Shown: positions 47,723 through 64,000 of the stretch, in pieces | How positions within the stretch are numbered: position 1 is the first letter of the stretch | How the letters are laid out: each line of letters begins with the position of its first letter | Origin: Acidobacteriota bacterium | GTDB lineage: Bacteria > Acidobacteriota > Vicinamibacteria > Vicinamibacterales > SCN-69-37 | Reading direction: 5' to 3' | Length of the DNA stretch: 64,000 bases | Assembly: GCA_016716905.1 (NCBI GenBank) | Contig: JADJUS010000003.1 | Location: forward strand, 723,710-787,709 | Position numbers and translations under genes: made by a program | Notes under the pieces: model-generated | Databases searched by the model: none | Seen by the model: only the letters and a program-made list of their open reading frames with translations | What the model was told of the DNA's origin: nothing

Positions 47723-49550
<1,828 letters not shown>

Positions 49551-49554
<4 letters not shown>

Positions 49555-51086
49555 CCGGCTGGCCAGTCCTTTCGATCCTCACCTGGGCGCCGTTTGCGAG
49601 CGCCCTGCTGATCATGGGCTTCGGGCGGTCGCGCCCGGGCTTTGTGCGGTGGACCGCGTTGCTCGGTACGGCCGTGTCGATGGTCTGCGCGTTGTGGCTC
49701 TACGCCAACTACGATTTGGCCGCGGCGGGATTCCAATTCTACGAGGAGTTGCCGCTGGTGCCGTCCATGGGGATCACCTACCAGCTCGCCATCGACGGGA
49801 TGAGCCTGGTGATGGTGTTGCTGACGGCGATCATCATCCTGGCAGGCGTCTTCGCTTCGTGGACGGTCAAGACCCGCGATCAGGAGTTCTATGCGCTGCT
49901 GCTGCTCCTGGTGACGGGCGTCTTCGGCGTGTTCGTCTCGCTCGACCTGTTCGTCTTTTTCCTGTTTTACGAAATCGCCGTATTGCCGATGTACCTGCTG
50001 ATCGGCATCTGGGGATCGAGCGGGGAAGTGCGTCCGCAGGGGGTGTTCGGCTGGGCGTTCGGCCGCACCGGCGTGGGCACCAAGGAATACGCGGCGATGA
50101 AGCTCACGCTGTACCTGCTCTTTGGGTCGGCGTTCATTCTGGTGGGCATGCTGGCGTTGTATGTGGCCGCCGGTTCCACGTCATTCTCACTGCTCGCCCT
50201 CGAAGCCGTGGAGTTCGACCCCGGGCTTCAGTCGTGGGTGTTCCTGGCGTTTTACATCGGGTTCGGCATCCTGGCGGCCATCTTCCCCTTCCATACATGG
50301 TCGCCGGACGGCCATGCGTCGGCGCCGACCGCGGTTTCAATGCTGCACGCCGGCGTGTTGATGAAGCTTGGCGCCTACGGCGTGGTGCGCCTGGGCATGG
50401 GACTGCTCCCGGAGGCCACGCAACAGTGGGCCTGGCTTGTGGGCACCATCGCCTGCATCAACATCGTCTACGGCGCGCTGAGCGCCATGGCGCAGAAAGA
50501 CCTGAAGTACGTCATCGCGTATTCGTCGGTCTCGCACATGGGCATCGTGATGCTGGGCGCGGCCACACTCACCGAGAGCGGGTTGAACGGCGCGGTCTTT
50601 CAGATGTTCGCGCACGGCATCATGACCGGCCTGTTCTTCGCGCTGGTCGGGCTCGTCTACGAAAAAGCGCACTCGCGCGACATCTTCAGCATGGGCGGTT
50701 TTGCCACCATGATGCCGGGCATTGCCGTGGCCTTCACGATTGGTGGCCTGTCGTCGCTGGGGCTGCCCGCGACGGCCGGTTTCGTCGCAGAGTTCCTGAC
50801 GTTCCTGGGGGCGTGGTCGTCGGCCCATTCCTGGTGGTTGTTCCCGGCCGTGATTGGCGCGTTCCTGACGTCGCTGTATGTCCTGCGCGTCGTGCGCGCG
50901 ATCTTCTGGGGCCCGAAGAGCACCAATCCGCATTTCCAGAACCTGCCAGACGCACAGGGCACCGAATGGGTGGCCATTGTGATTCTGGTGGGCGCGCTGG
51001 TGTTGTTTGGCGTGTTGCCGGGTCTGGCGCTGACACCGATTGACGTCAGCACCGTGCCGTTGCTGATGCGCCTGGGGGTGCTGTGA
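49551..51086 (+). CDS. nuoM: Subunit M (antiporter-like)
   Basis: IDG-x-S, FYE-x-x-x-LPMY, PFHTW-x-PD-x-H-x-x-APT, KLG-x-YG, IAYSSVSHMG, LGLP-x-x-x-GF-x-x-EF. Confidence 0.95.
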
Positions 51087-51100
51087 TGGGAGGACACGCG

Positions 51101-52528
51101 ATGGATCCTTCCTGGCCCCTCATGATTGAAGGCTGGCTGTTCGCGCTGTTGCTGGTGGTGTTTGTCCTCGGCCTCCTCAGGCGGCAGGCAAACGATGCAT
51201 TGGCGGGGTGGATCACGCTGGCAGGCCTGGTGGGCATTTCTGTGGCCGCCTGGAATGCGGAGCCCGGTCGGGTGGCGCTTGAAGGCACGTTTGTGCTCGA
51301 CGAGTTGTCGCTGTTTGGCAAGCGCCTGTTCCTGGTGGCCAGTGTGCTGAGTGTGCTGGCCACGCAGGCGATGACCCACGCGTCGTTCCGGAGGCGCGGC
51401 ACCGAGTACTACGTGGCGTTCCTCGCGTCGCTGCTGGGGATGCTCGTGCTGGCATCCGCGCGCGACCTGATCGTGTTGTTTGTCGCGTTTGAGTTGATGT
51501 CGATTCCGCTGTATTTCCTGACGGGGTTCCTGAAAGGCGACAAGGCCGCGCCTGAAGGCGCGATGAAGTTCTTCCTCGTCGGCAGCATCTCGTCGGCGGT
51601 CATTCTGTACGGACTGTCGTTTGTGTATGGCGCGGCCGGCACCACTGATATGTCAGCCATCCCGCCACTGGTGGCGACGGCGAATCCGCTGATGTTGCTC
51701 GGGCTCGCGCTGATGCTGGGCGGCCTCGGGTTCAAGATTGCAGCGGTGCCATTCCATATGTGGGTGCCCGACACCTACGAGGCCGCGAACACGCCGTTCG
51801 TCGCGTGGATATCCATCGCGCCGAAGACGGCCGGGTTCCTCGCCATCTTCCGCCTCTATGTGGAAGGTGTGGGCGAGGGGGCAGTCCTCTGGGTGCCGAT
51901 CGTGTCTGTGCTGGCCGGAGTGACCATCGTTGCCGGCAACCTGATGGCCATTCCGCAGTCCAACATCAAGCGGCTGCTCGCGTACTCCGGCGTGGCGCAC
52001 ATCGGATATCTGCTGCTGGGCCTGGCTGCCATGTCGGTGTCGGGCGTGGGGATGGTGCTGTTTTATCTGGTGGCGTACCTCTTCGGCAACATGGGTGCAT
52101 TTTTCGTGGTGCAGGCCGTGGCGGCGTCGGAGGGCAGCGACGAGATTGAGAAGTACCAGGGTCTGGCGCGCCGGTCGCCGGTGTTGGCGCTGAGCCTGTT
52201 GCTCTTCCTGTTGTCGCTGGGCGGCATCCCGTTCATGGCCGGGTTCTGGGCCAAGCTCTTCATCTTCTGGGCCGTGGTGGAGCAGGGGATGTACTGGCTC
52301 GCGTTTCTGGGTGCCGTACTCACGGTGGTGGCGCTCTACTACTACCTGGTGGTGGCGCGGCGGATGTACATCGAGGCGCCCACGAACCCTGCGCCCATTC
52401 CCGTTCCCGCGGTGCTGATGGTGGCCATCGGCGGATGTGTGGCCGGCATTCTCATCATGGGCGTCTATCCAGAGCCGTGGGTGCGCGCGTTCATGCGCGT
52501 GGCGATGACGCTCTTTTCGACCATCTGA
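51101..52528 (+). CDS. nuoN: Subunit N (antiporter-like)
   Basis: FELMSIPLY, EG-x-x-K-x-F, GFKIAAVPFH-x-W-x-PD-x-YE, NIKRLLAYS-x-x-AH-x-GY, GIP-x-x-AGF-x-x-K; RBS GGAGG before the ATG at 51101. Confidence 0.95.
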   Translation: MDPSWPLMIEGWLFALLLVVFVLGLLRRQANDALAGWITLAGLVGISVAAWNAEPGRVALEGTFVLDELSLFGKRLFLVASVLSVLATQAMTHASFRRRGTEYYVAFLASLLGMLVLASARDLIVLFVAFELMSIPLYFLTGFLKGDKAAPEGAMKFFLVGSISSAVILYGLSFVYGAAGTTDMSAIPPLVATANPLMLLGLALMLGGLGFKIAAVPFHMWVPDTYEAANTPFVAWISIAPKTAGFLAIFRLYVEGVGEGAVLWVPIVSVLAGVTIVAGNLMAIPQSNIKRLLAYSGVAHIGYLLLGLAAMSVSGVGMVLFYLVAYLFGNMGAFFVVQAVAASEGSDEIEKYQGLARRSPVLALSLLLFLLSLGGIPFMAGFWAKLFIFWAVVEQGMYWLAFLGAVLTVVALYYYLVVARRMYIEAPTNPAPIPVPAVLMVAIGGCVAGILIMGVYPEPWVRAFMRVAMTLFSTI

Positions 52529-55159: not shown

Positions 55160-55199
55160 CGCCCGCGAGGTGACAGGATCACAATCAGGAGAACAACTG

Positions 55200-55703
55200 A
55201 TGAAGATGATGAAACCTGCCGGTTGGGCGGGCGTGCTTGGCGTGTTTCTCGGCGTGACCGTCCATGGAGGCGTTCAAGACCGATCGGACGTGCCGGACGT
55301 GATGACCAAGACCATCACGGAGCAGCTCGACGACGAGATCCCTGGCTGGACCATGGTCAGCGCTCCCGCGTGTGGCCCTGCCGGGCCGGCCAGCGCTGAT
55401 ATTGACTCCGACAAATCACTGGACGTGGCAATGGTCGTGAACACCCCTGGAGGTGAGGCGCGCATCGTTGTGGTGTTGCCGCGCGTGGTCGGCGGGGCAG
55501 TGGTGCACGACCTGGGACCATTGGCCGCTGTGTCGGGCGCGACCCACGTGGTGGTGGTGCCATTGGGCACCGCGGTCCGGGACCCAGGTGCGATGTTCGA
55601 TGACTATCTCTCCGGACCGACGTTTGCAGCGGCGTCCTGTGAGAAGGCTCTGACGGCGTTTCCCTGGGCGGGCACGGGTTTTCGGCAGCGTCCCCTGAGG
55701 TAG
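55200..55703 (+). CDS. Hypothetical secreted protein
   Basis: RBS AGGAG, signal-peptide-like N-terminus, FG-GAP-like ADIDSD-x-x-x-D-x-A, two Cys. Confidence 0.6.
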   Translation: MKMMKPAGWAGVLGVFLGVTVHGGVQDRSDVPDVMTKTITEQLDDEIPGWTMVSAPACGPAGPASADIDSDKSLDVAMVVNTPGGEARIVVVLPRVVGGAVVHDLGPLAAVSGATHVVVVPLGTAVRDPGAMFDDYLSGPTFAAASCEKALTAFPWAGTGFRQRPLR

Positions 55704-56498
55704 TCAGCGCGTCTTGGTCACCACCGTTGCCAGCAGATAACCGTGGCGGCGCACGGCGGGCACCCGCGCATCGAGTTGCACGAAGGGCCACACCAGCGCG
55801 CCGGTGATCGCCGACAGCGGCCGGCACCACGAGTGGCAGGCAAGGTCCAGCATCCTCAGCCACCCGGGGATGAAGAGGATTGAGGTCTCGGCGACGACGG
55901 TGAAACCCGCGCGTTCGAGCATGGTCCGGAGCTTGCGCCGCGAATAGGATTTTTCGTAACCATAGGCATAAAGCCCCAGCCACTGCATGACCGTGGCCAG
56001 CGCCGGCCGCAGAAACGGGTCGTGGCGATTCGGCACACCGATGATGGCGCGCCCACCCGGCTTGAGGACGCGGGCCATCTCCGCCACCGCGCGCTCGGTG
56101 GCATCGAAGTGTTCGATCGTGCCCATCGAATAGACCGCATCAAAACTATCGTCCTTGAAGGGAATGTCCCGCACATCGCCGGCGACACCTTGCAGGGGCC
56201 GGGCGTTAGGCTGGCCCGCGAAGGCGGCGCGTGCCTGCCGGACGGTGGGTTCGGAGATGTCGATGCCGAAGGCACGCGCACCCTGCTGGGCGGCCCACAA
56301 GAGAATGCGGGTGTTCTTGGCCTCATCCCACAAGTCGGTTTTGAGAATCGTCAGCCCCTCAAGCGCAGGGAAATGCTCGGTGAAGAGCCGTTCTTCATTT
56401 TGCGCGTAGTAGCGCGTGGACGCGGCGCCGCCGAGGTCGGGAAAACCCTTGCCAACTCCTTCCCAGAAGTTCTGGTATTTGCGTGCTCGGGTGGTCAT
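55704..56498 (-). CDS. Class I SAM-dependent methyltransferase (Methyltransf_11-like) with an atypical motif I
   Basis: GIDIS, GDVRDIPF, SFDAVYS-x-G-x-IEH, RVLKPGG; ILKTDLWDEA occupies the usual LD-x-G-x-G-x-G position. Confidence 0.85.
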   Translation of the reverse strand: MTTRARKYQNFWEGVGKGFPDLGGAASTRYYAQNEERLFTEHFPALEGLTILKTDLWDEAKNTRILLWAAQQGARAFGIDISEPTVRQARAAFAGQPNARPLQGVAGDVRDIPFKDDSFDAVYSMGTIEHFDATERAVAEMARVLKPGGRAIIGVPNRHDPFLRPALATVMQWLGLYAYGYEKSYSRRKLRTMLERAGFTVVAETSILFIPGWLRMLDLACHSWCRPLSAITGALVWPFVQLDARVPAVRRHGYLLATVVTKTR

Positions 56499-58464
56499 GG
56501 CTGTTCACTCCTGACGGTCCAACTCCAGGTGCTCAGCGCAAACGAGAGCGCACGCGTGTCGCCGTTGGTCACAAGGCCGGTCGTCATCGTTGGGCCCTGA
56601 GTGGCGTGAAAGGCCACTTGGTGGCTGCCGGAAGGGATGGTCAGCGGACCGATGTCGTAAATGCGCCGAGCGGGCTCCACCTGAAACGAGTACACCGGCC
56701 GTCCATCGACGCGCACTTCAAAGGGGCGCTCATGGTGAAACGCCGATAGCTCAAGACTCAGCGTGGCAACAATCGGCCCCGCGCTCCTGTTCACCACTGT
56801 CCACGCGGCCTGGGCGCCCATCCATCGCCAGGAGCGATCACCGTCACGCTCACGCGGGAAGAACCCGGTCATTTCGGCTGTGTAAATCGCTGGCACTGCA
56901 GCTGTGACCTTGAGCACCAGGCCGTCCTTCAGCCTGGCAGCCACCGCAGTGCCTTCAGGGGCCCGTCCCGAACCGAACGCGGCCGCGTCGTCCGAACCGC
57001 GCCGGATCAGGAGATGCGTGAAGCCCTCCGCGGCCAGTTTGTGAGCCACGTGGGATTCTCCGCAGTCACTGAACGGTCCACCGAGGAGCCTGACCCGATG
57101 TCCCGTCAGCCAAGGCACCGACGCCGAGGGCAACGAGTAGGGGCACGCAGTCGAGCACCTGCATGGGGCCGGGCTGGTCCATCACCCAGCGATGCGCCGT
57201 CGTCGGCATCACGTCGCGCCAAAGAGCAGACGGCCTCACCGCGTACTCCGCCGCCCCGAGGGCCAGCAGCAGCGCACACAGCGCCCTGGCGCCTGCCCAT
57301 TTGGAGGAGACGAGCACCGTGACGCCAAGGCCGGCCAGCAGCGCCACCATCAGTTGCACGACGCTGCCGAATCGCGCGTATGCGCGGAACATCGGCGCCA
57401 GTTCGTACAACCACGCGGATGGTCGAAGCATGGGAAACCCGCCATCACTCTGCTCGGGCGACAGCGAGCACAGCAGCGCGGTGAACGCGACGACGACGAG
57501 GACCGGGACCCAGCGCGTGGATTCGATGCGCCGACCCCTGATCAGCCACCAGGCGATGGCGACAAGGCCAAGCGCAACGAAGCCCCATCCCAGGCTGACC
57601 TGTTGCTCAAGGAGTCCCTCGCGAACGCCGGCTGCGTGCCAGAAGCGAAAGACGGATTGCGTGAGCAACGGGTGTTCGATGGGAGGGACAAGATAGCTCA
57701 CCCACTTCGCGCTGTAGTGAGAGAGGTCGGCCTTCGGAAAGGCAAAGGCGCTACGATTCGTCACGACCTCGCCGGCTGTGAAGGACACATACGCCAGGCC
57801 CGCTGCGGCGATGGCGGTCAGCGTTCCGGCGGTTATAGCCAGTCGACGCAGCGGTTGCGGGTGGGTGCGCAGGCCAACAAGCCAGTATGCGAGCAGGGCC
57901 ACCGGTGTGATCACGGCGGCAATGAAACCCGAGTAGAAATTTGAGAGCGTCACGGTTGCCGTTGCTGCGGCGAGCCAGGCGATGGCCCACGGTGTGGGTC
58001 GATCCACGCACCGCCACAACGCCAGTAGGTAGAAGGGCAGCCACTGCGTTTGTGCGATGTGCGGATGGTAGGCCGCCTGCGCCAGATGGAAGGGGGAGAA
58101 GGCGAAGACCACCGCCGCGACGGCAGCGCCCGCTGGTGCGAGGCAGAGATGGCGCGCCAGCAGGTACGCAAAGGCCGCCGAGAGTGGGAAGGTGAGGAGG
58201 ACGAGCCAGTTGTAGGCGGCAACCGGGCCCGCGACTCCGAGCGATCAATGCACCTGGAATATCAGTGAGGGGCTGGGCGTAGATGCCATTACCGAGCGGA
58301 CGCTCGAACTGTGCCATCACGGTGAATGGATCGTGATGCCGGCCGACAATCTCCATGCCGAAGATGCGGTCGGACGGCGCGCGCAGCACCGGCCAGGCCA
58401 TGACCACGGTGATAACCGTGGCGACAGCGACGATGATTGCAACTTCAGCGACGCGTCTGGACAC
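56495..58464 (-). pseudogene. GT-C/YfhO-like multi-TM glycosyltransferase split by two frameshifts (near 58236 and 57140-57143)
   Basis: Three track ORFs (57751-58464, 57066-58112, 56495-57133) join into one ~655-aa membrane protein (GRHHDPF, AAYNW, FAFSPFH, FRAYARF). Overlaps with both neighbours (20 bp and ATGA) support a single gene. Confidence 0.75.
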
Positions 58465-59800
58465 TGGCGACCACCGCGGCCATCACCAACACCGGACCGG
58501 CCACGGCCCAGGCGCGGATTGCCGGCACCCACGTCACCAGGTCTGGTGGCGCGGCCATGACGTGCAGAGCGAAGAGACCGGCGGCGTGGGACACTGCGAG
58601 CACCACGAGTCCTCCGAGCGGCCGCCGCCAGTGGACTGTCGTCAGTGCCGCCACCCACAGGGCCAGGTAGAGTCCGATCTGAAAGCCCGGCAGGAACATC
58701 AGGGCGCCTTGCGGGCCTTCACTGAGCGCTGCCGATGGGAACGCCACAAGCCGAGTGTAGACCGGCGCCAGCACCAGCACAGAAAGCGTACCGGCCATGA
58801 TGCCGGCCGCGGCGTATCGGAAGGCGCCGTCGCGCTTGTGGCGCCAATGTGCGGCCACTCCCACGACCACGGCGCCAAGGAGCAACTGATAAAACGCGTG
58901 CACCAGGAACTCCGGCGACGCAATGATGGTGGCGGGCACGGCCACGACGAGCAGCCGCAGGATGCCCAGCAGGATAAACAGTGGAATCGCGGCCAGCAGG
59001 CCAAGGGTGAGCCGGCGCCAGCTCGGAGCATACGCACACACGGCCGCGATGTAGACAGGGATGAGCGGCGTGGAAATGCACTCGTGTGTGACGAGAAACC
59101 CACCGCGGAGCGTCCACAGAACATTCGCTGCGGCGTGAGCGGTGGCGCCCGACGCGCTCAGAATCAGTGCCGCTGATTGGGCGATGAAGCCAGTCAGTGC
59201 CGCGGTCGCATCGCTGCTTGTGTAGAGCGGCGAGACGGCCGCAAAGGTCAACAGGAACAGGCCGGTGAGAAGCACAAATGTGCGCGTGGGGTGCGCGACG
59301 GCAGGCAGCGTCGTGTGGCGGTCGGCGACTCGCATCCAGATAAATATGTAACCGGCAATCGAAATTGTCAGAAGCGCCGGCCACGCGTGGACGTGCAGCG
59401 CCGTGAACCAGGCTGGTGAGCCGGCTGCCCAGCCCAGGGTACCGATTCGCGCTGTATTAAGGATCAGGATGAGGGTGACACCGGCCAACATGCCTGCCAG
59501 CCGGGAGCGCCACGCCGCAGGGTAGGCCACGATCGCCGCCAGACACAGTGCCAGAGCATCCGAACCGCTGCAGGCGAGCGTCACCGCCACGGGTGCCGCG
59601 GGTGCGCCAAGCAGCCACACCGCGGCGTCGGCCTGCGCGCGCGTCATCGGCAGCAGAATGTGCGTCTCGGTCCATGGCAGACGCAGCAGGGCGAAGAGGC
59701 CAAGGCTGGCCGCGATGGCCCGGGCCACAAACCTGCCGGCGTCTGTCGAGCCGACGAACCGTCTAGGCTGAGGCAGCAGCTCGGCGGTGGCCGTCGGCAC
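58445..59800 (-). CDS. Exosortase/archaeosortase-family (XrtH-like) protein with tandem repeated domains
   Basis: Domain 1: ACSG, NTAR, LH. Domain 2: HECIS, GILR, VH. AGGAGG lies 7 nt before the GTG at 59800, which overlaps the speD end. Confidence 0.75.
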   Translation of the reverse strand: MPTATAELLPQPRRFVGSTDAGRFVARAIAASLGLFALLRLPWTETHILLPMTRAQADAAVWLLGAPAAPVAVTLACSGSDALALCLAAIVAYPAAWRSRLAGMLAGVTLILILNTARIGTLGWAAGSPAWFTALHVHAWPALLTISIAGYIFIWMRVADRHTTLPAVAHPTRTFVLLTGLFLLTFAAVSPLYTSSDATAALTGFIAQSAALILSASGATAHAAANVLWTLRGGFLVTHECISTPLIPVYIAAVCAYAPSWRRLTLGLLAAIPLFILLGILRLLVVAVPATIIASPEFLVHAFYQLLLGAVVVGVAAHWRHKRDGAFRYAAAGIMAGTLSVLVLAPVYTRLVAFPSAALSEGPQGALMFLPGFQIGLYLALWVAALTTVHWRRPLGGLVVLAVSHAAGLFALHVMAAPPDLVTWVPAIRAWAVAGPVLVMAAVVASVQTRR

Positions 59801-60052
59801 GCGGGACCTCCTGAATCGACACGCTCGCTGCTCCCAGAGCGCGTGCCATTTCGGCGATGGCCCCACGGCTGTCGAGTCGTGCCGAGCACGAGAAAATGTC
59901 GAGATGCGCCGTCCCACTCTCGGGCCATGAGTGCAGCACCGCGTGTGACTCCGCGAGAATCAGCACCGACGTGAGACCGTTGTCGGGAAAATGATGCGAT
60001 GCGGTTTGCACTATCGTGGCTCCCGCTTTCGTCAGTGCGCTGACGAAAGTGA
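59763..60052 (-). pseudogene. speD: S-adenosylmethionine decarboxylase proenzyme (SpeD/SpeH type), 5'-truncated
   Basis: AGATIV...HHF-P-x-x-G-x-TSV-x-x-LAESH (E|S pyruvoyl site), HSWPE, DIFSC. About 25-30 N-terminal residues and the start codon are missing. Confidence 0.82.
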
Positions 60053-61258
60053 TTGTTGCCGCCGACGCTACCGAACGGGATCGTCGCGGCGGCGTATAAC
60101 CAGGTGATCACGGGCAGCGGAGGCACCGCGCCGTACGCCTTCGGTGTGTCGAGCGGCGTGCTGCCAGCGGGTACCACGCTGTCCGCCGCCGGCGTCCTGG
60201 CCGGAACGCCCACGGCTGCCGCGACCTCGATAGCGACCATCCGCGGCACCGACGCCAACGGCTGTTTCGCCGAGGTGGTGTATACGATCGTCATCGCGCC
60301 GGCCGTACCGCCACCGCCTGTGTGTCCGGTGATCACATTGTTGCCGCCGACGCTGCCGAACGGCATCGTCGCGGTGGCGTATAACCAGGCGATCACGGGC
60401 AGCGGAGGCACCGCGCCCTACACCTTCGGTGTGACGAGCGGCGTGTTGCCGACGGGCCTGACGCTGACCGGCACCGGCGTGTTGTCGGGCACGCCGACGA
60501 CTGCGGCCACCTCCACCGTCACGATTCGCGGCACCGACGCCAACGGCTGCTTCGCGGAGGTGGTGTTGACGATCGTGATCGCACCGGCCGTACCGCCGCC
60601 GCCCGTGTGTCCGGTGATCACGTTGTCGCCGCCGACGCTACCGAACGGCATCGTCGGGGTGGGGTATAGCCAGACGATTACCGGCAACGGTGGCACCGCG
60701 CCGTACACCTTCGGCGTGACGAGCGGTGCGCTGCCGGCGGGACTGACTCTGACTTCGGCGGGCGTGTTGTCGGGGACACCGACGACCGTCGGTACCACGT
60801 CCGTGACGATTCGTGGGACGGACGCCAATGGCTGTTTCGCCGAAGTGGTCTACACGATGATCGAGCTACCTGCAGAGGTGCCTCCGTGTCTGGTGCCGAT
60901 CACATTTGACCCGGCGACGTTTGGCCCGATCACCGCGGGGGTCTTTTTCAGTCAGGCGTTTATTGGCAGCCTGGGGACACCTGCGTATGTGTTTACGGTC
61001 GTATCAGGCGCCCTGCCCACGGGCATGACGCTCTCTCCGGCTGGTGTGCTCTCGGGCACTCCCACGTCCGCAGGCGACTACACATTCACCATTGGCGCGA
61101 CCGATGCCTTGTTGTGCGTGTTTGAGCGCTCGTACACAGCAACGGTTATCGTCGCGGTGCCGACGCTGCCGCAGATCTTCATGGTGCTGCTGGCTGTGGG
61201 GCTGATCGGCCTGGGATATGTGCGGCTCCGCCGGAACTCGACGCATCGTCTCGCATAG
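60053..61258 (+). CDS. Surface protein with four putative-Ig (He_PIG-like) repeats and a C-terminal IPTL-CTERM-like sorting signal; 5'-truncated
   Basis: 95-aa (285-bp) repeats at 60053, 60338, 60623 and a diverged fourth (LP-x-G-x-TL...G-x-LSGTPT); C-terminus VPTLPQ + TM + RLRR; no signal peptide. Confidence 0.82.
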   Translation: MLPPTLPNGIVAAAYNQVITGSGGTAPYAFGVSSGVLPAGTTLSAAGVLAGTPTAAATSIATIRGTDANGCFAEVVYTIVIAPAVPPPPVCPVITLLPPTLPNGIVAVAYNQAITGSGGTAPYTFGVTSGVLPTGLTLTGTGVLSGTPTTAATSTVTIRGTDANGCFAEVVLTIVIAPAVPPPPVCPVITLSPPTLPNGIVGVGYSQTITGNGGTAPYTFGVTSGALPAGLTLTSAGVLSGTPTTVGTTSVTIRGTDANGCFAEVVYTMIELPAEVPPCLVPITFDPATFGPITAGVFFSQAFIGSLGTPAYVFTVVSGALPTGMTLSPAGVLSGTPTSAGDYTFTIGATDALLCVFERSYTATVIVAVPTLPQIFMVLLAVGLIGLGYVRLRRNSTHRLA

Positions 61259-61268
61259 CGGAAGCCTC

Positions 61269-63413
61269 TCAGCGGCGCGCTGAGACTTCGAACGATATCG
61301 GGGCGATCGCCTCGGCCTTGCCGCCGTTGACCACTTCTACGCCCAGCGAGTAGTGGCCGGGCGCCAGTCCAGTCAGCGGCAGGTCGATTACCGTTCCGTG
61401 GACGCTCGTCCCGAGGGCGTTGCCAGACTTCGCCAGGGTGGCCGGGCTGTTGAATACGACGGTTCCATCCGGGCGGCGGACCGTCACGATCACCGCGGCC
61501 GGCGGCCCCTGCTTCGGCAGGGGGCCACGGAACGGCACGTAGACAGCTAACCGCTGATCGGCACTGAAACGTCGAGATGCCGTTGGCACCGCGGTGAGCA
61601 GGGACTTCATCACCGGATACTCGCCGGTGGTCGGCACGCTGTCACCGTAGACGCCGACGACAATTCCCGCCGGAGCCAGGCGATCCTCCGCAGCAGTCAA
61701 ATCGAGATCGAGAACGGCGGAGCCCGCGGTTCCACCACCTGACTCGATCGCGCCCACCCGTATCTGGTAACTCTGGTTCGGGAGAGGGATTTCCATGACG
61801 TAGCGCAGTCCGTCCGACACCGCGGCGCGCGCGGTCTTTGGGAGTCGGAGCGTGCCGGTTGAAGATCTCCCGGCTCGAATGTTTCCGTCCGAATCAATAG
61901 CGACAAACCCCACTTCGATTTCGTTCCGAATGGAGTCGCCCTCCTCAATGAAACGAAAGCCGGACGACTGCAATTCGACAACGACGGAAACAACATGGTC
62001 CTGACCGCGGAGCCCGATCGGGGTGCCCACGACTTGCATCCCCAGACCGGAGACTGGCAGGGCACTGACCAGAAGCGCCTGCATCCAGGGGCTCGCGCCT
62101 TTGAGATTCAGACCGGCCGGCGGAGCACTCGCTGATGCGGCTGCGGGGCCCACTGGAAAGTAACCCGGCCTCGCGGATACAGACACGCCAGGGCGGCCTA
62201 CCTGAACAGAGATTTTTCGGTATCGTTCATTGACGGCCGCATTCTTCGGAGAGTATCCAAGGACGTAATAGGTGCTGTTCGCGTCGGCGATCCGATTGAA
62301 GCCGCGATCGAAATCCGTGGAATTGACCACGGCAAAGCCGCCAGTCTGGTCTGCGAAGTTCCGCAAGACTCCCTGGCTGCGTTGCACCTCCTGCTGAATG
62401 TCCCTGGTCGGCGGAGGAGTCGCGGTGTTACCGGAGCGGCCCGGGCTCGCAGGCGGCCCGGCGGCCCGCATCATGTCGTCTTCGCCAATGCTCGTTCCAC
62501 GCGGATTTACCGTGTAGAGCGACACATTGCTCTTCCTGGCGGAGTCGTACATGGCCCGCTGCGACAACAAGAGGTCTGCCGCGTAACTCGATGCTTGGCT
62601 TGACGCGCTCTGTTGGGCTCCGCCGTTTGCGGCGGTCGTCCCAATCATGTCGGTCATGTCGAGTTCGATGCCTTCCGAAAACAGAATAATCGACCGTCGC
62701 CGACCGGGCACCACGCCAAAGCTGTTGGAGATCGTACGAATGCTGTCGAACAAGGTGCGGGCATCGGCGGCCTTGGTCGCGGCCTCGTAGTCGCGCGGAG
62801 GGCCGTCATCGGCGGCGCGCATCACCGTTTCGATCTTGTTCAGGGTGGCGGAACGACTCTTCCCGCCAACAAACATATCGACGGCCCGGATCAATCGGGC
62901 TTTGTCGCTGGTGAATGATTGATTCCCTGGCCCTCCGACTGTCACCACGGCGACCGCATCGCCCGCTTCAACGTAGGTATTGATGAACTTCTTCGCCTGT
63001 TGCTTGACGCTGCCCGTGCGCAGGGGATGGACATGCTGAGCATCAAGGACGATCACATACGACCGTCCGCTTCCAGTCTGATTGCCGGCCACATCAGTTC
63101 CCACTGGAGGCGCCGGCGCAGACGCTTGAGCCGCGCTCACCGTGTTGCGGGGCAGTTCGACGAATGAGAAGTGGGTGATGTCCTGTCGAACGCCGTCCTC
63201 CTCAAGCGCGAAATCTTCGCGCGTCAGGCCATTGATGGGACGGCCGTTCTTGTCCGAGACGAACGCGACGACTTCGACGAGCGTCGCGCCAGTGCTGAAC
63301 GCGAAGCGCTGATCCTGCTGAAGGGGACCCGCTGCCGATGTTGCCAGGACGCGAAGCGCCCACAGCGCTGCCAGGGACGCGCACAGGCCAACGGCCTTCG
63401 ACACTCGCATCAC
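61269..63413 (-). CDS. Secreted VWA-domain protein (long Acidobacterial VWFA-related type)
   Basis: Signal peptide, F-x-x-G-x-x-LVEV, GL-x-x-EDF-x-x-x-EDG, RRRSII-x-FSEG, LY-x-V-x-PRG, QTGG, YYVLGY-x-P, ARPGY. Confidence 0.82.
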   Translation of the reverse strand: MMRVSKAVGLCASLAALWALRVLATSAAGPLQQDQRFAFSTGATLVEVVAFVSDKNGRPINGLTREDFALEEDGVRQDITHFSFVELPRNTVSAAQASAPAPPVGTDVAGNQTGSGRSYVIVLDAQHVHPLRTGSVKQQAKKFINTYVEAGDAVAVVTVGGPGNQSFTSDKARLIRAVDMFVGGKSRSATLNKIETVMRAADDGPPRDYEAATKAADARTLFDSIRTISNSFGVVPGRRRSIILFSEGIELDMTDMIGTTAANGGAQQSASSQASSYAADLLLSQRAMYDSARKSNVSLYTVNPRGTSIGEDDMMRAAGPPASPGRSGNTATPPPTRDIQQEVQRSQGVLRNFADQTGGFAVVNSTDFDRGFNRIADANSTYYVLGYSPKNAAVNERYRKISVQVGRPGVSVSARPGYFPVGPAAASASAPPAGLNLKGASPWMQALLVSALPVSGLGMQVVGTPIGLRGQDHVVSVVVELQSSGFRFIEEGDSIRNEIEVGFVAIDSDGNIRAGRSSTGTLRLPKTARAAVSDGLRYVMEIPLPNQSYQIRVGAIESGGGTAGSAVLDLDLTAAEDRLAPAGIVVGVYGDSVPTTGEYPVMKSLLTAVPTASRRFSADQRLAVYVPFRGPLPKQGPPAAVIVTVRRPDGTVVFNSPATLAKSGNALGTSVHGTVIDLPLTGLAPGHYSLGVEVVNGGKAEAIAPISFEVSARR

Positions 63414-63609
63414 AACCTCCTCTGTCGCGTGAATGGGTCCAAGTGTCTCACAACGCAGATCGGCCGGGGGGGAGGGGAAGCCTCCGCGGGAAATCCGTCG
63501 CTGGATGCGGAAAAGGCAGCAGGCTCGGCCGTCGAGCCGCGTCTATCCGGAGACACTGTCGATCATCTTGTCGGCGCATCTCTTGCATCTGACCGGCCCG
63601 GAGGGTCTT

Positions 63610-64000
63610 ATGCGACCACGAGCTGCCGGTGTCCTCTTGGTTGGAGCACTTCTCGTTTTCTCGTCCTCGCCTGTCCTGGCAGAGACCGGAAGCGTTCGGG
63701 TGATTGTCAACATCGACGGGTTGAGTGATCTCCTTCTTTCCGGCAACACCGCCCAGTGGCACCACCTGCGCAGACAGCCCACCACAGGAAACACTGCTCA
63801 ACGGCGTCTCCTGGGTGCCGACGGGGCTGTCGGGCTTCTGCAACTGCCTGTCGGACGTGTTCGGAGGTGTCACGCCGGCGATCCTCAAACGGCGACGAAC
63901 TTCGGGGGTGACCTGGAGCGGACGCGCATCCGTCACACTGGAGCAACTGCCCTCGGCGTTGAACAGTTACCGGCTTCGGGTGCGCTTCGATGATCTGGCC
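63610..64000 (+). CDS. Hypothetical secreted protein, frameshifted near 63770-63785, 3'-partial
   Basis: Signal peptide MRPRAAGVLL...VLAE; after QWHHL a protein-like reading continues in the +1 frame (QETLLNGVSWVP...YRLRVRFDDLA) to the window end. Confidence 0.5.

What the first reader, a model, noticed from the sequence alone, without database searches (positions are those of the whole stretch)
58445..59800. Exosortase built from three tandem repeats, two with apparently complete Cys-Arg-His triads
A core motif recurs three times: ALALCLAAIVAYPAAWRSRLAG, PLIPVYIAAVCAYAPSWRRLTLG and FQIGLYLALWVAALTTVHWRRPLGG. Repeats 1 and 2 each have a Cys just upstream (ACSG; HECIS), an Arg after the next helix (NTAR; GILR) and a His (LH; VH). 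Repeat 3 lacks the Cys. Typical exosortases have one catalytic domain, so two active sites could handle two substrates or a two-step transfer. Repeat 3 may equal the non-catalytic partner often encoded beside xrtH (inference).
Basis: partly seen in the sequence, partly recalled or inferred. Interest (0 to 1): 0.7.

Follow-up and report, generated by a model that had tools for sequence, protein, structure and literature searches.

The report
Double-active-site exosortase fused to partner
This soil-bacterium gene encodes a membrane protein-sorting enzyme made of two fused copies of the normally single exosortase unit, both keeping their Cys-Arg-His active-site residues, plus a third Cys-less module resembling the usual helper protein; I found no published description, and it gives a testable handle on how these poorly understood enzymes work.

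Summary
The gene lies on the minus strand at 58445-59800 and encodes 451 aa from a GTG start with an AGGAGG upstream. It belongs to the exosortase/archaeosortase superfamily. Module 1 (res 19-160) and module 2 (res 171-320) are homologous to each other (hhalign 95-97%, E 1e-8 to 3e-10). Both also match a single-domain XrtH profile over their full length (E 3e-27 and 1e-12), with Cys, Arg and His in register. Across 77 relatives at 33-55% identity, C77/R118 and C241/R282 are invariant, and H136 and H301 are each kept in 76 of 77. The two modules form separate clades, so one ancient duplication is the likely origin. Module 3 (res 324-448) is not significantly similar to modules 1 or 2. It is remotely similar to the "exosortase H-associated membrane protein" encoded beside ordinary xrtH (profile-profile 84-89%, E about 1e-6). 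This is the genome's only exosortase. It sits beside a cargo ending in VPTLPQ-TM-RR, and 68 of 94 related loci have an adjacent tail-bearing ORF, nearly all of this type. It also lies in a conserved AdoMetDC/DUF6311/methyltransferase module that some relatives carry fused. Triad geometry could not be measured because no coordinates were available. Verdict: a real, widespread (soil Vicinamibacterales), undescribed variant of a known kind.

The parts
58445..59800 (-). Whole gene: 451-aa three-module exosortase-family membrane protein (GTG start at 59800, TGA stop at 58445-58447)
   Evidence: ORF and start context. Full-length homologs of 440-476 aa. AF2 model with pLDDT 88.9, pTM 0.76 and 15 helices.
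59321..59746 (-). Module D1 (res 19-160): XrtH-like exosortase domain
   Evidence: TIGR04178 signature scores 48 bits against a cut-off of 23, and XrtH scores 52 bits. hhalign against an XrtH profile gives 99.7%, E 3e-27, 148 columns.
59570..59572 (-). Cys77 (ACSG), putative nucleophile of D1
   Evidence: TGC codon. Kept in 77/77 relatives. Aligns with the Cys of GCNG in XrtH.
59447..59449 (-). Arg118 (NTAR) of D1
   Evidence: Kept in 77/77, as is N115. Aligns with the N..R motif of XrtH.
59393..59395 (-). His136 (LH) of D1
   Evidence: Kept in 76/77. Aligns with the XrtH His.
58841..59290 (-). Module D2 (res 171-320): second, diverged exosortase domain that keeps the beta-hairpin before its Cys
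   Evidence: XrtH 28.9 bits, E 1e-6, and PF09721 E 5e-4 on this piece alone. hhalign against XrtH gives 97.8%, E 1.2e-12, 155 columns. hhalign against D1 gives E 3e-10. Forms its own clade with 92/99 support.
59078..59080 (-). Cys241 (HECIS), putative nucleophile of D2
   Evidence: TGC codon. Kept in 77/77. In register with C77 and the XrtH Cys.
58955..58957 (-). Arg282 (GILR) of D2
   Evidence: Kept in 77/77. In register with R118.
58898..58900 (-). His301 (VH) of D2, followed by conserved Gln305
   Evidence: H301 kept in 76/77 and Q305 in 74/77. These align with the H..vWQ motif of XrtH.
58457..58831 (-). Module D3 (res 324-448): Cys-less module with conserved Q364, Q374 and R429, remotely related to the XrtH-associated membrane protein
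   Evidence: No family hit. Not significantly similar to D1, D2 or XrtH. The D3 HMM hits xrtH-adjacent partner ORFs. hhalign against the partner profile gives 84-89%, E 2e-6 and 9e-7. Q364 kept in 76/77 and R429 in 77/77.
61157..61255 (+). Sorting tail VPTLPQ-IFMVLLAVGLIGLGYV-RLRR... of the adjacent 401-aa repeat protein (60053-61258), the likely cargo
   Evidence: IPTL-CTERM model TIGR04174 scores 19.7 bits against a cut-off of 20.5 over the full 27-position model. 68 of 94 related loci have an adjacent tail-bearing ORF, nearly all of this type.
59763..60011 (-). AdoMetDC-like (pyruvoyl decarboxylase) gene overlapping the exosortase start; N-terminally truncated in this assembly
   Evidence: TIGR03330 matches model positions 42-111 of 112. 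The ESH motif is present. A 126-aa intact orthologue sits in the same position in L002. Fused to the exosortase in P0220 and P0254.
56495..58464 (-). DUF6311-type polytopic membrane protein gene, split over three frames here
   Evidence: phmmer with the 658-aa L002 orthologue covers residues 4-82, 78-445 and 435-658 in three frames. PF19830 on the orthologue.
55704..56498 (-). Class I SAM-methyltransferase-fold gene, last gene of the module
   Evidence: NCBIfam methyltransferase hits. Orthologue in L002. Fused C-terminally to the tandem exosortase in relatives of about 700 aa.

Best explanation
The gene encodes a 12-TM inner-membrane protein that joins three subunits of a minimal exosortase machine into one chain. 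D1 is an XrtH-like exosortase. D2 is an anciently duplicated, diverged exosortase that has kept its own Cys-Arg-His(-Gln) set. D3 is a Cys-less module related to the 'exosortase H-associated membrane protein', which ordinary xrtH genes have as a separate neighbour. All three modules have the same N-in/C-in orientation, so both Cys loops face the outer leaflet. It is the only exosortase in the genome. I infer that it processes the adjacent surface protein by recognising its VPTLPQ + TM + Arg tail and attacking it with a Cys thiol to form an acyl-enzyme. The acyl-enzyme would then pass the new C-terminus to an acceptor. I further infer that both sites are catalytically competent and that the fused chain acts as a fixed heteromer. 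The acceptor is probably made by the co-conserved, sometimes fused, AdoMetDC-like, methyltransferase-fold and DUF6311 proteins. Shown: the domain homology, the residue conservation, the single ancient duplication, the cargo and module linkage, and the topology. Inferred: catalysis at both sites, the division of labour, and the nature of the acceptor.
For: Each half gives separate exosortase hits. D1 aligns to D2 at E 3e-10, and D1 and D2 align to XrtH at E 3e-27 and 1e-12, with Cys, WR, Arg, His and Gln in register. C77, N115, R118, C241 and R282 are kept in 77/77 relatives, and H136 and H301 in 76/77, at 33-55% identity. D1 and D2 are equally conserved, with entropy 1.87 and 1.95 and 9 columns at >=95% each. 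The D2 clade has 92/99 support and the D1 clade 100/97, with similar terminal branch lengths. The architecture is seen in at least 159 clusters at 50% identity with E<1e-30 and in 80 named MAG loci, so it is not an assembly fusion. A more distant member in G051 also keeps both sets. D3 links to the XrtH partner NF041730. The genome has a single exosortase signature hit. An adjacent VPTLPQ-type cargo is present here, and 68 of 94 related loci have an adjacent tail-bearing ORF, nearly all of this type. The AdoMetDC/DUF6311/MTase module is present in 12 of 14 genome loci and fused in relatives of 700-850 aa. Those fusions also fix the C-terminus in the cytoplasm. K+R counts are 17.2 on inner loops against 7.0 on outer loops. 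The AF2 model is confident, with five helices per module, and in both modules Cys, Arg and His lie near the outer ends of consecutive helices. Cys/Arg/His is the accepted putative triad (Haft preprint 10.1101/2023.06.07.544157).
Against: There is no biochemical evidence for any XrtH-type enzyme. No coordinates were available, so the convergence of each triad was not measured. D2 has an atypical Cys context (E-C-x-x-T-P instead of C-S/N-G) and a long stem branch, so it could have a changed or non-proteolytic role. The D3-partner link is remote and asymmetric: the partner HMM finds no tandem protein among 2,272 ORFs, and no member hits NF041730 at E<=1. In this particular assembly the AdoMetDC gene lacks its N-terminus, the cargo ORF lacks a signal peptide and the DUF6311 gene is frameshifted. 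The system may therefore be damaged here, or the assembly may be error-prone.
Confidence: 0.6

Rival explanations
1. One active enzyme plus a pseudo-enzyme. Only D1 is catalytic. D2 is a substrate-binding or scaffolding duplicate whose Cys, Arg and His are kept for structural or binding reasons, for example holding the cargo TM helix or the acceptor. D3 is a further scaffold.
For: D1 is much closer to XrtH than D2 is (52 against 29 bits; tree). The Cys context of D2 is atypical. Ordinary XrtH already works with a Cys-less partner, so non-catalytic modules are part of this machinery.
Against: Pseudo-enzymes normally lose catalytic residues. Here all three residues, plus the trailing Gln, are invariant or nearly so across 77 relatives down to 33% identity and in the distant G051 member. 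D2 is as conserved as D1.
Confidence: 0.22
2. Two sites for two cargo classes. Each domain recognises a different sorting motif.
For: This genome has two tail types near the gene: VPTLPQ, and PVPVMGGQ on the contig-14 paralogue of the window's last ORF.
Against: Usually only one tail-bearing ORF is seen beside the gene in related loci, and no second motif class recurs. Whole-genome tail mining finds only these two candidates, and the second is weak at 15 bits.
Confidence: 0.08
3. Artefact. Two or three adjacent small genes were merged by frameshift or assembly error in an error-prone long-read MAG.
For: Neighbouring genes in this assembly do show indel-type frameshifts, and there is a near-identical, indel-rich second copy on contig 14.
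Against: The same uninterrupted architecture of about 450 aa occurs in hundreds of independent assemblies, both short-read and long-read, at 33-61% identity. The linker between modules is short and in frame everywhere.
Confidence: 0.02

Closest known systems
Exosortase H (XrtH, NCBIfam TIGR04177) with IPTL-CTERM cargo (TIGR04174)
   Same: XrtH is the best-scoring named family for both D1 and D2. Cys, Arg, His and Gln are in register with a profile of 30 true XrtH sequences. The cargo tail VPTLPQ/E + TM + Arg is an IPTL-CTERM variant, and some relatives read VPTLSEWA.
   Different: XrtH is a single domain of about 160-200 aa. This protein has 451 aa with two catalytic-type domains plus a third module. 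It scores 66 bits against the cut-off of 86. It has one adjacent dedicated cargo, which was not seen within 1.5 kb of 30 ordinary xrtH genes. It is also tied to AdoMetDC, MTase and DUF6311 genes, which are absent beside ordinary xrtH.
Exosortase H-associated membrane protein (NCBIfam NF041730)
   Same: In ordinary systems it is encoded immediately downstream of xrtH. D3 sits immediately downstream of the catalytic domains in the same chain. D3 shows remote profile similarity to it over all helices.
   Different: D3 is shorter, lacks the partner's RSDFPP...FN insert, and does not reach the curated model at all. Homology is probable but not proven.
Archaeosortase A (ArtA) with PssA/PssD in Haloferax
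   Same: It belongs to the same superfamily. Its function depends on enzymes that make an amine-bearing lipid acceptor, including a decarboxylase (PMC7157517). That parallels the AdoMetDC-family decarboxylase linked or fused to the exosortase here.
   Different: ArtA has a single catalytic domain. Its partners are phosphatidylserine-type lipid enzymes, not SAM enzymes. Its signal is PGF-CTERM.

Membership tests
Exosortase/archaeosortase superfamily (TIGR04178 signature; Pfam PF09721) | Score above the curated cut-off of the signature model | tested here: met
   TIGR04178 scores 44.9-48.1 bits against a cut-off of 23, through D1. All 74 scanned relatives match. D2 alone scores 17 bits, below the cut-off. 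PF09721 matches only D2, at E 5e-4, below its gathering score.
Exosortase/archaeosortase superfamily (TIGR04178 signature; Pfam PF09721) | Near-invariant Cys, Arg and His near the outer ends of three consecutive TM helices | tested here: met
   D1 has C77, R118 and H136; D2 has C241, R282 and H301. They are kept in 76-77 of 77 relatives. Helix positions come from AF2 DSSP. Outer-face placement comes from the positive-inside count and from cytoplasmic C-terminal fusions. The 3-D distances were not measurable.
Exosortase/archaeosortase superfamily (TIGR04178 signature; Pfam PF09721) | Co-occurring proteins with a tripartite C-terminal sorting signal (motif, TM helix, basic cluster) | tested here: met
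   The adjacent 401-aa protein carries such a tail. 68 of 94 related loci have an adjacent tail-bearing ORF, nearly all of the VPTLPQ/E type.
Exosortase/archaeosortase superfamily (TIGR04178 signature; Pfam PF09721) | Cysteine-dependent removal of the sorting signal | not testable with these tools
   This needs mutagenesis and cargo mass spectrometry.
Exosortase H proper (TIGR04177) | Score >= 86 bits | tested here: not met
   The whole protein scores 66.3-66.9 bits and D1 alone scores 52 bits. In the genome scan, tandem-family members score about 27-60 bits per matched domain, while true XrtH scores 87-135.
Exosortase H proper (TIGR04177) | Single-domain protein of about 160-200 aa with a separate XrtH-associated partner gene | tested here: not met
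   This is a 451-aa three-module chain. No separate partner gene is present; D3 takes that place.
Exosortase H proper (TIGR04177) | Cognate IPTL-CTERM sorting domain (TIGR04174 >= 20.5 bits) | tested here: inconclusive
   The window cargo scores 19.7 bits over the full model, just under the cut-off. The motif family VPTL(P/S)(Q/E) is clearly related.
Exosortase H-associated membrane protein (NF041730), for module D3 | Score >= 35 bits | tested here: not met
   No hit at E<=10 for D3 alone. No hit at E<=1 for any of 74 members.
Exosortase H-associated membrane protein (NF041730), for module D3 | Detectable homology to xrtH-adjacent partner proteins | tested here: inconclusive
   The forward HMM reaches E 5.5e-6 and hits at least 12 loci. 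hhalign gives 89% and 84%. The reverse HMM is weak, with best E 2e-4, but 73 of 99 weak domains fall in D3 in register.

The most novel reading that the evidence does not exclude
Minimal exosortases are obligate multi-subunit machines, and this family has frozen the assembly into one chain with a division of labour between two thiol sites. One site cleaves the VPTLPQ signal and holds the cargo as a thioester. The other presents or activates an amine-bearing acceptor built by the co-conserved, sometimes fused, AdoMetDC-like decarboxylase, methyltransferase-fold enzyme and DUF6311 membrane protein. If so, this operon would directly reveal what exosortases attach their substrates to.
Probability: 0.2. 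Interest if true: 0.85.

Novelty: new variant of a known kind. Interest (0 to 1): 0.6.

Why it matters
Exosortases are widespread, yet their chemistry is still inferred: no structure is solved, no acceptor is known for any bacterial member, and it is unclear whether they are one-step transpeptidases. This family offers a compact system for testing those questions. It has two conserved Cys/Arg/His sites in one chain, a built-in partner module, a single adjacent cargo, and candidate acceptor-making enzymes that are physically fused in some relatives. Single-site mutants should separate cleavage from transfer, and mass spectrometry of one cargo should identify the attached moiety. The family is also abundant in Vicinamibacterales, a dominant but poorly studied soil lineage.

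Tried and rejected
1. A Foldseek search of the AF2 model against PDB gave no match at E<=0.001. A profile search of PDB sequences gave none at E<=10. No exosortase structure exists to compare with.
2. The structure tool gives no coordinates, so triad distances and superposition of D1, D2 and D3 could not be computed.
3. D3 as a third exosortase repeat was tested with two alignments and an XrtH profile. E was always 0.08-0.36, so it is rejected as a sequence-supported claim and kept only as a structural possibility.
4. A reverse search of the partner HMM against the tandem loci found nothing at E<=10.
5. Literature searches for XrtH, IPTL-CTERM, DUF6311, exosortase with AdoMetDC, tandem exosortase, and XrtX/XrtY found no description. 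Haft 2012 (PMC3256604) is not held.
6. The search for related loci with the diverse alignment A2 failed because it has no conserved stretch to search with. A1 worked.
8. The hypothesis of two cargo classes found no recurrent second motif.
9. The longer 490-aa ORF from GTG 59917 was rejected because homologs and the Shine-Dalgarno sequence point to 59800.
Full report
THE GENE. The finding lies in a minus-strand ORF. The longest frame runs 58445-59917 (490 aa). It has AGGAGG 6-7 nt upstream, and every full-length homolog begins at the equivalent residue. The product has 451 aa (P0002).

TWO EXOSORTASE DOMAINS: CONFIRMED. On the whole protein, NCBIfam reports several exosortase and archaeosortase models with 2-3 matched stretches each. 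When the protein is cut into three pieces, each half still gives exosortase hits of its own.
- Piece 1 hits XrtH at 52 bits and the TIGR04178 family signature at 48 bits (cut-off 23).
- Piece 2 hits XrtH at 28.9 bits (E 1e-6) and Pfam PF09721 at E 5e-4.
- Piece 3 hits nothing.

Profile-profile comparison with a 74-sequence diverse alignment gives D1 against D2 at 95.5-96.9% probability, with E 1.4e-8 local and 3e-10 global over 137 columns. I built a profile from 30 true single-domain XrtH genes taken from the same phylum. D1 aligns to it at 99.7% (E 3e-27, 148 columns) and D2 at 97.8% (E 1.2e-12, 155 columns). In both alignments Cys, the WR motif, Arg, His and a trailing Gln are in register. 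D2 keeps the beta-hairpin that precedes the Cys in XrtH, whereas D1 has lost about 14 residues there.

BOTH RESIDUE SETS ARE CONSERVED. The family is large. A word-indexed search found at least 847 hits, and the top 120 are all 439-476 aa. The exhaustive representative search found 1189 clusters at E<=1e-3 and 159 at E<=1e-30, many of them full-length at 33-55% identity. In 77 such diverse members, C77, N115, R118, C241 and R282 are kept in 77/77, and H136 and H301 in 76/77. D1 and D2 are equally constrained: mean column entropy is 1.87 and 1.95, and each has nine columns at >=95%. A domain tree places all D2 sequences in one clade (92/99 support) and 37 of 38 D1 sequences in another (100/97), with D1 next to XrtH. 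Terminal branch lengths are similar in D1 and D2. This fits one ancient duplication followed by purifying selection on both copies. A still more distant member in genome G051 also keeps both sets: STECTG...NLLRAF...SMH and TPGCMASP...TLLRVC...FVH. The Haft preprint 10.1101/2023.06.07.544157 states that Cys, Arg and His are the suspected catalytic triad of exosortases and archaeosortases.

THE THIRD MODULE. D3 (res 324-448) has no Cys. Its conserved polar residues are Q364 (76/77), Q374 (70/77) and R429 (77/77); H413 is not conserved.
- Its similarity to D1, D2 or XrtH is never significant. E is 0.08-0.36, and only the WRR stretch aligns, although always in register.
- A D3 HMM does hit the ORF immediately downstream of single-domain xrtH in at least a dozen loci, always over the same two profile segments, with best E 5.5e-6.
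- That neighbour belongs to NCBIfam NF041730, 'exosortase H-associated membrane protein' (39.4 bits against a cut-off of 35).
- hhalign of D3 against a profile of 17 such partners gives 89% (E 2.3e-6, 95 columns) locally and 84% (E 9e-7, 141 columns) globally. D1, D2 and XrtH against the partner give E 0.14, 0.044 and 0.007.
- The reverse search is weak. The partner HMM finds no tandem protein among 2,272 ORFs, and its best E among 271 homologs is 2e-4. Still, 73 of 99 weak domains fall inside D3 in a constant register. No family member reaches NF041730 directly.

I conclude that D3 probably corresponds to the XrtH partner (about 0.7). Whether that partner is itself a degenerate exosortase repeat remains open. 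The AF2 model has five helices in each module, which is compatible with a triplication.

STRUCTURE AND TOPOLOGY. AF2 with the 74-sequence alignment gives mean pLDDT 88.9 and pTM 0.76. In D1 and D2 the Cys sits just before helix c. The Arg sits about 22 residues into helix d, and the His sits 6-8 residues into helix e. All three are therefore near the same end of three consecutive helices joined by 3-4-residue loops. Predicted inner loops carry 17.2 K+R per sequence and outer loops 7.0; the short outer loops carry only 0.2-0.45. Relatives carry cytoplasmic SAM enzymes fused after D3, which places the C-terminus in the cytoplasm. With four TM helices per module, all modules are parallel and both Cys loops face outward. 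No solved structure matches the model by fold or by sequence.

CONTEXT.
- This is the only exosortase-signature gene in a 5.25-Mb genome rated 100% complete.
- The divergent neighbour (60053-61258) ends in VPTLPQIFMVLLAVGLIGLGYVRLRR. This matches IPTL-CTERM over the whole model at 19.7 bits, against a cut-off of 20.5.
- In 68 of 94 related loci, most with only 2 kb of flank, an adjacent ORF carries a tail-like C-terminus, nearly always [AGP]VP[TA][LM][PS][QE] + TM + Arg-rich.
- Usually only one such ORF is seen per locus. No second motif class recurs, so the idea of two substrates has no support.
- The exosortase is also embedded in a conserved module of AdoMetDC-like, DUF6311 (a polytopic membrane protein) and methyltransferase-fold genes. 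The module is present in 12 of 14 genome loci, in varying order.
- In relatives the methyltransferase domain (proteins of about 700 aa), or the methyltransferase and AdoMetDC domains together (830-850 aa), are fused to the C-terminus of the tandem exosortase.
- None of these genes, and no adjacent cargo, was found within 1.5 kb of 30 ordinary xrtH genes.
- In Haloferax, ArtA function depends on PssA and PssD, which are proposed to make an amine-bearing lipid (PMC7157517). That gives a precedent for a decarboxylase-linked acceptor pathway.

DISTRIBUTION. In a 401-genome sample of the phylum, about 13 genomes carry the tandem form and 44 carry true XrtH. Named genome records are almost all uncultured Vicinamibacterales or other Acidobacteriota MAGs from soil. 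Sources annotate the protein only as 'exosortase/archaeosortase family protein'. No paper in the searchable library describes the architecture.

STATE OF THE LOCUS IN THIS ASSEMBLY. The exosortase ORF itself is intact, but its neighbours are not.
- The AdoMetDC frame lacks its N-terminal part: the called ORF lacks about 41-45 residues, and the open stop-to-stop frame lacks about 10-27 residues and has no start codon.
- The cargo ORF starts inside a repeat and has no signal peptide.
- The DUF6311 gene is split over three frames.

Contig 14 ends in a second copy that is 98.9% identical to window 55176-59302. It lacks D1 and is even more fragmented. The two copies differ by 18 small indels, mostly in short runs, and each is in frame where the other is shifted. 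That pattern suggests long-read consensus errors or very recent decay.

VERDICT. The protein works like an XrtH-type exosortase but fails the membership test for XrtH proper (66 bits against 86; three modules). It is best filed as an undescribed, widespread variant: XrtH-like domain + second active-type domain + partner-like module. Earlier notes of this scan on other genomes reach similar conclusions. I treated them as leads and re-derived each point here.

Noticed in passing
window 60012-60107 (minus) and 60053 (plus): Head-to-head defect. The AdoMetDC-like frame is open back to about 60107 but has no start before 60011, and it lacks the N-terminal part seen in the 126-aa orthologue. The cargo ORF begins at 60053 inside its first repeat and has no signal peptide.
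   Followed up: partly
window 56495-58464 (minus): The DUF6311-type gene is split over three frames. The two shift points, near 58238 and 57143, coincide with 1-nt differences from the contig-14 copy, which is in frame at those places. This suggests homopolymer-type assembly errors.
   Followed up: partly
G000 contig 14, last 4.1 kb (L018 10724-14836): A second copy, 98.9% identical to window 55176-59302, lies at a contig end. It lacks exosortase module 1 and has 18 small indels. It is joined directly to 46 nt identical to the end of the cargo gene. It could be a haplotig, a duplication or a chimera.
   Followed up: partly
window 63433-64000 (plus) and L018 4160-4870: This ORF has a signal peptide. 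Its intact contig-14 paralogue (236 aa) ends in PAPVPVMGGQ-SLALLMVLLLGLGVVAL-RRPAA, a second and weaker sorting-tail candidate. The window copy appears frameshifted just beyond the window end.
   Followed up: partly
window 61269-63413 (minus): A 714-aa protein matches the acidobacterial VWA-domain family TIGR03436 at 201 bits. It lies between the two tail-bearing genes.
   Followed up: no
L062 9129-11348 (genome G005): An XrtH-like single domain is fused to a long C-terminal region containing an HEVGHxxGxxH zinc-metalloprotease-like motif. This is a different exosortase fusion.
   Followed up: no
L050 and L051 (genome G325): One complete genome carries two copies of the tandem exosortase. Neither has the AdoMetDC/MTase/DUF6311 genes within 9 kb. 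Each sits next to a protein ending in EETPALP-LVG...-RARLRR.
   Followed up: no
window 49533-52528 (plus): NuoM and NuoN genes of a complex I operon lie upstream. They are unrelated to the finding.
   Followed up: no
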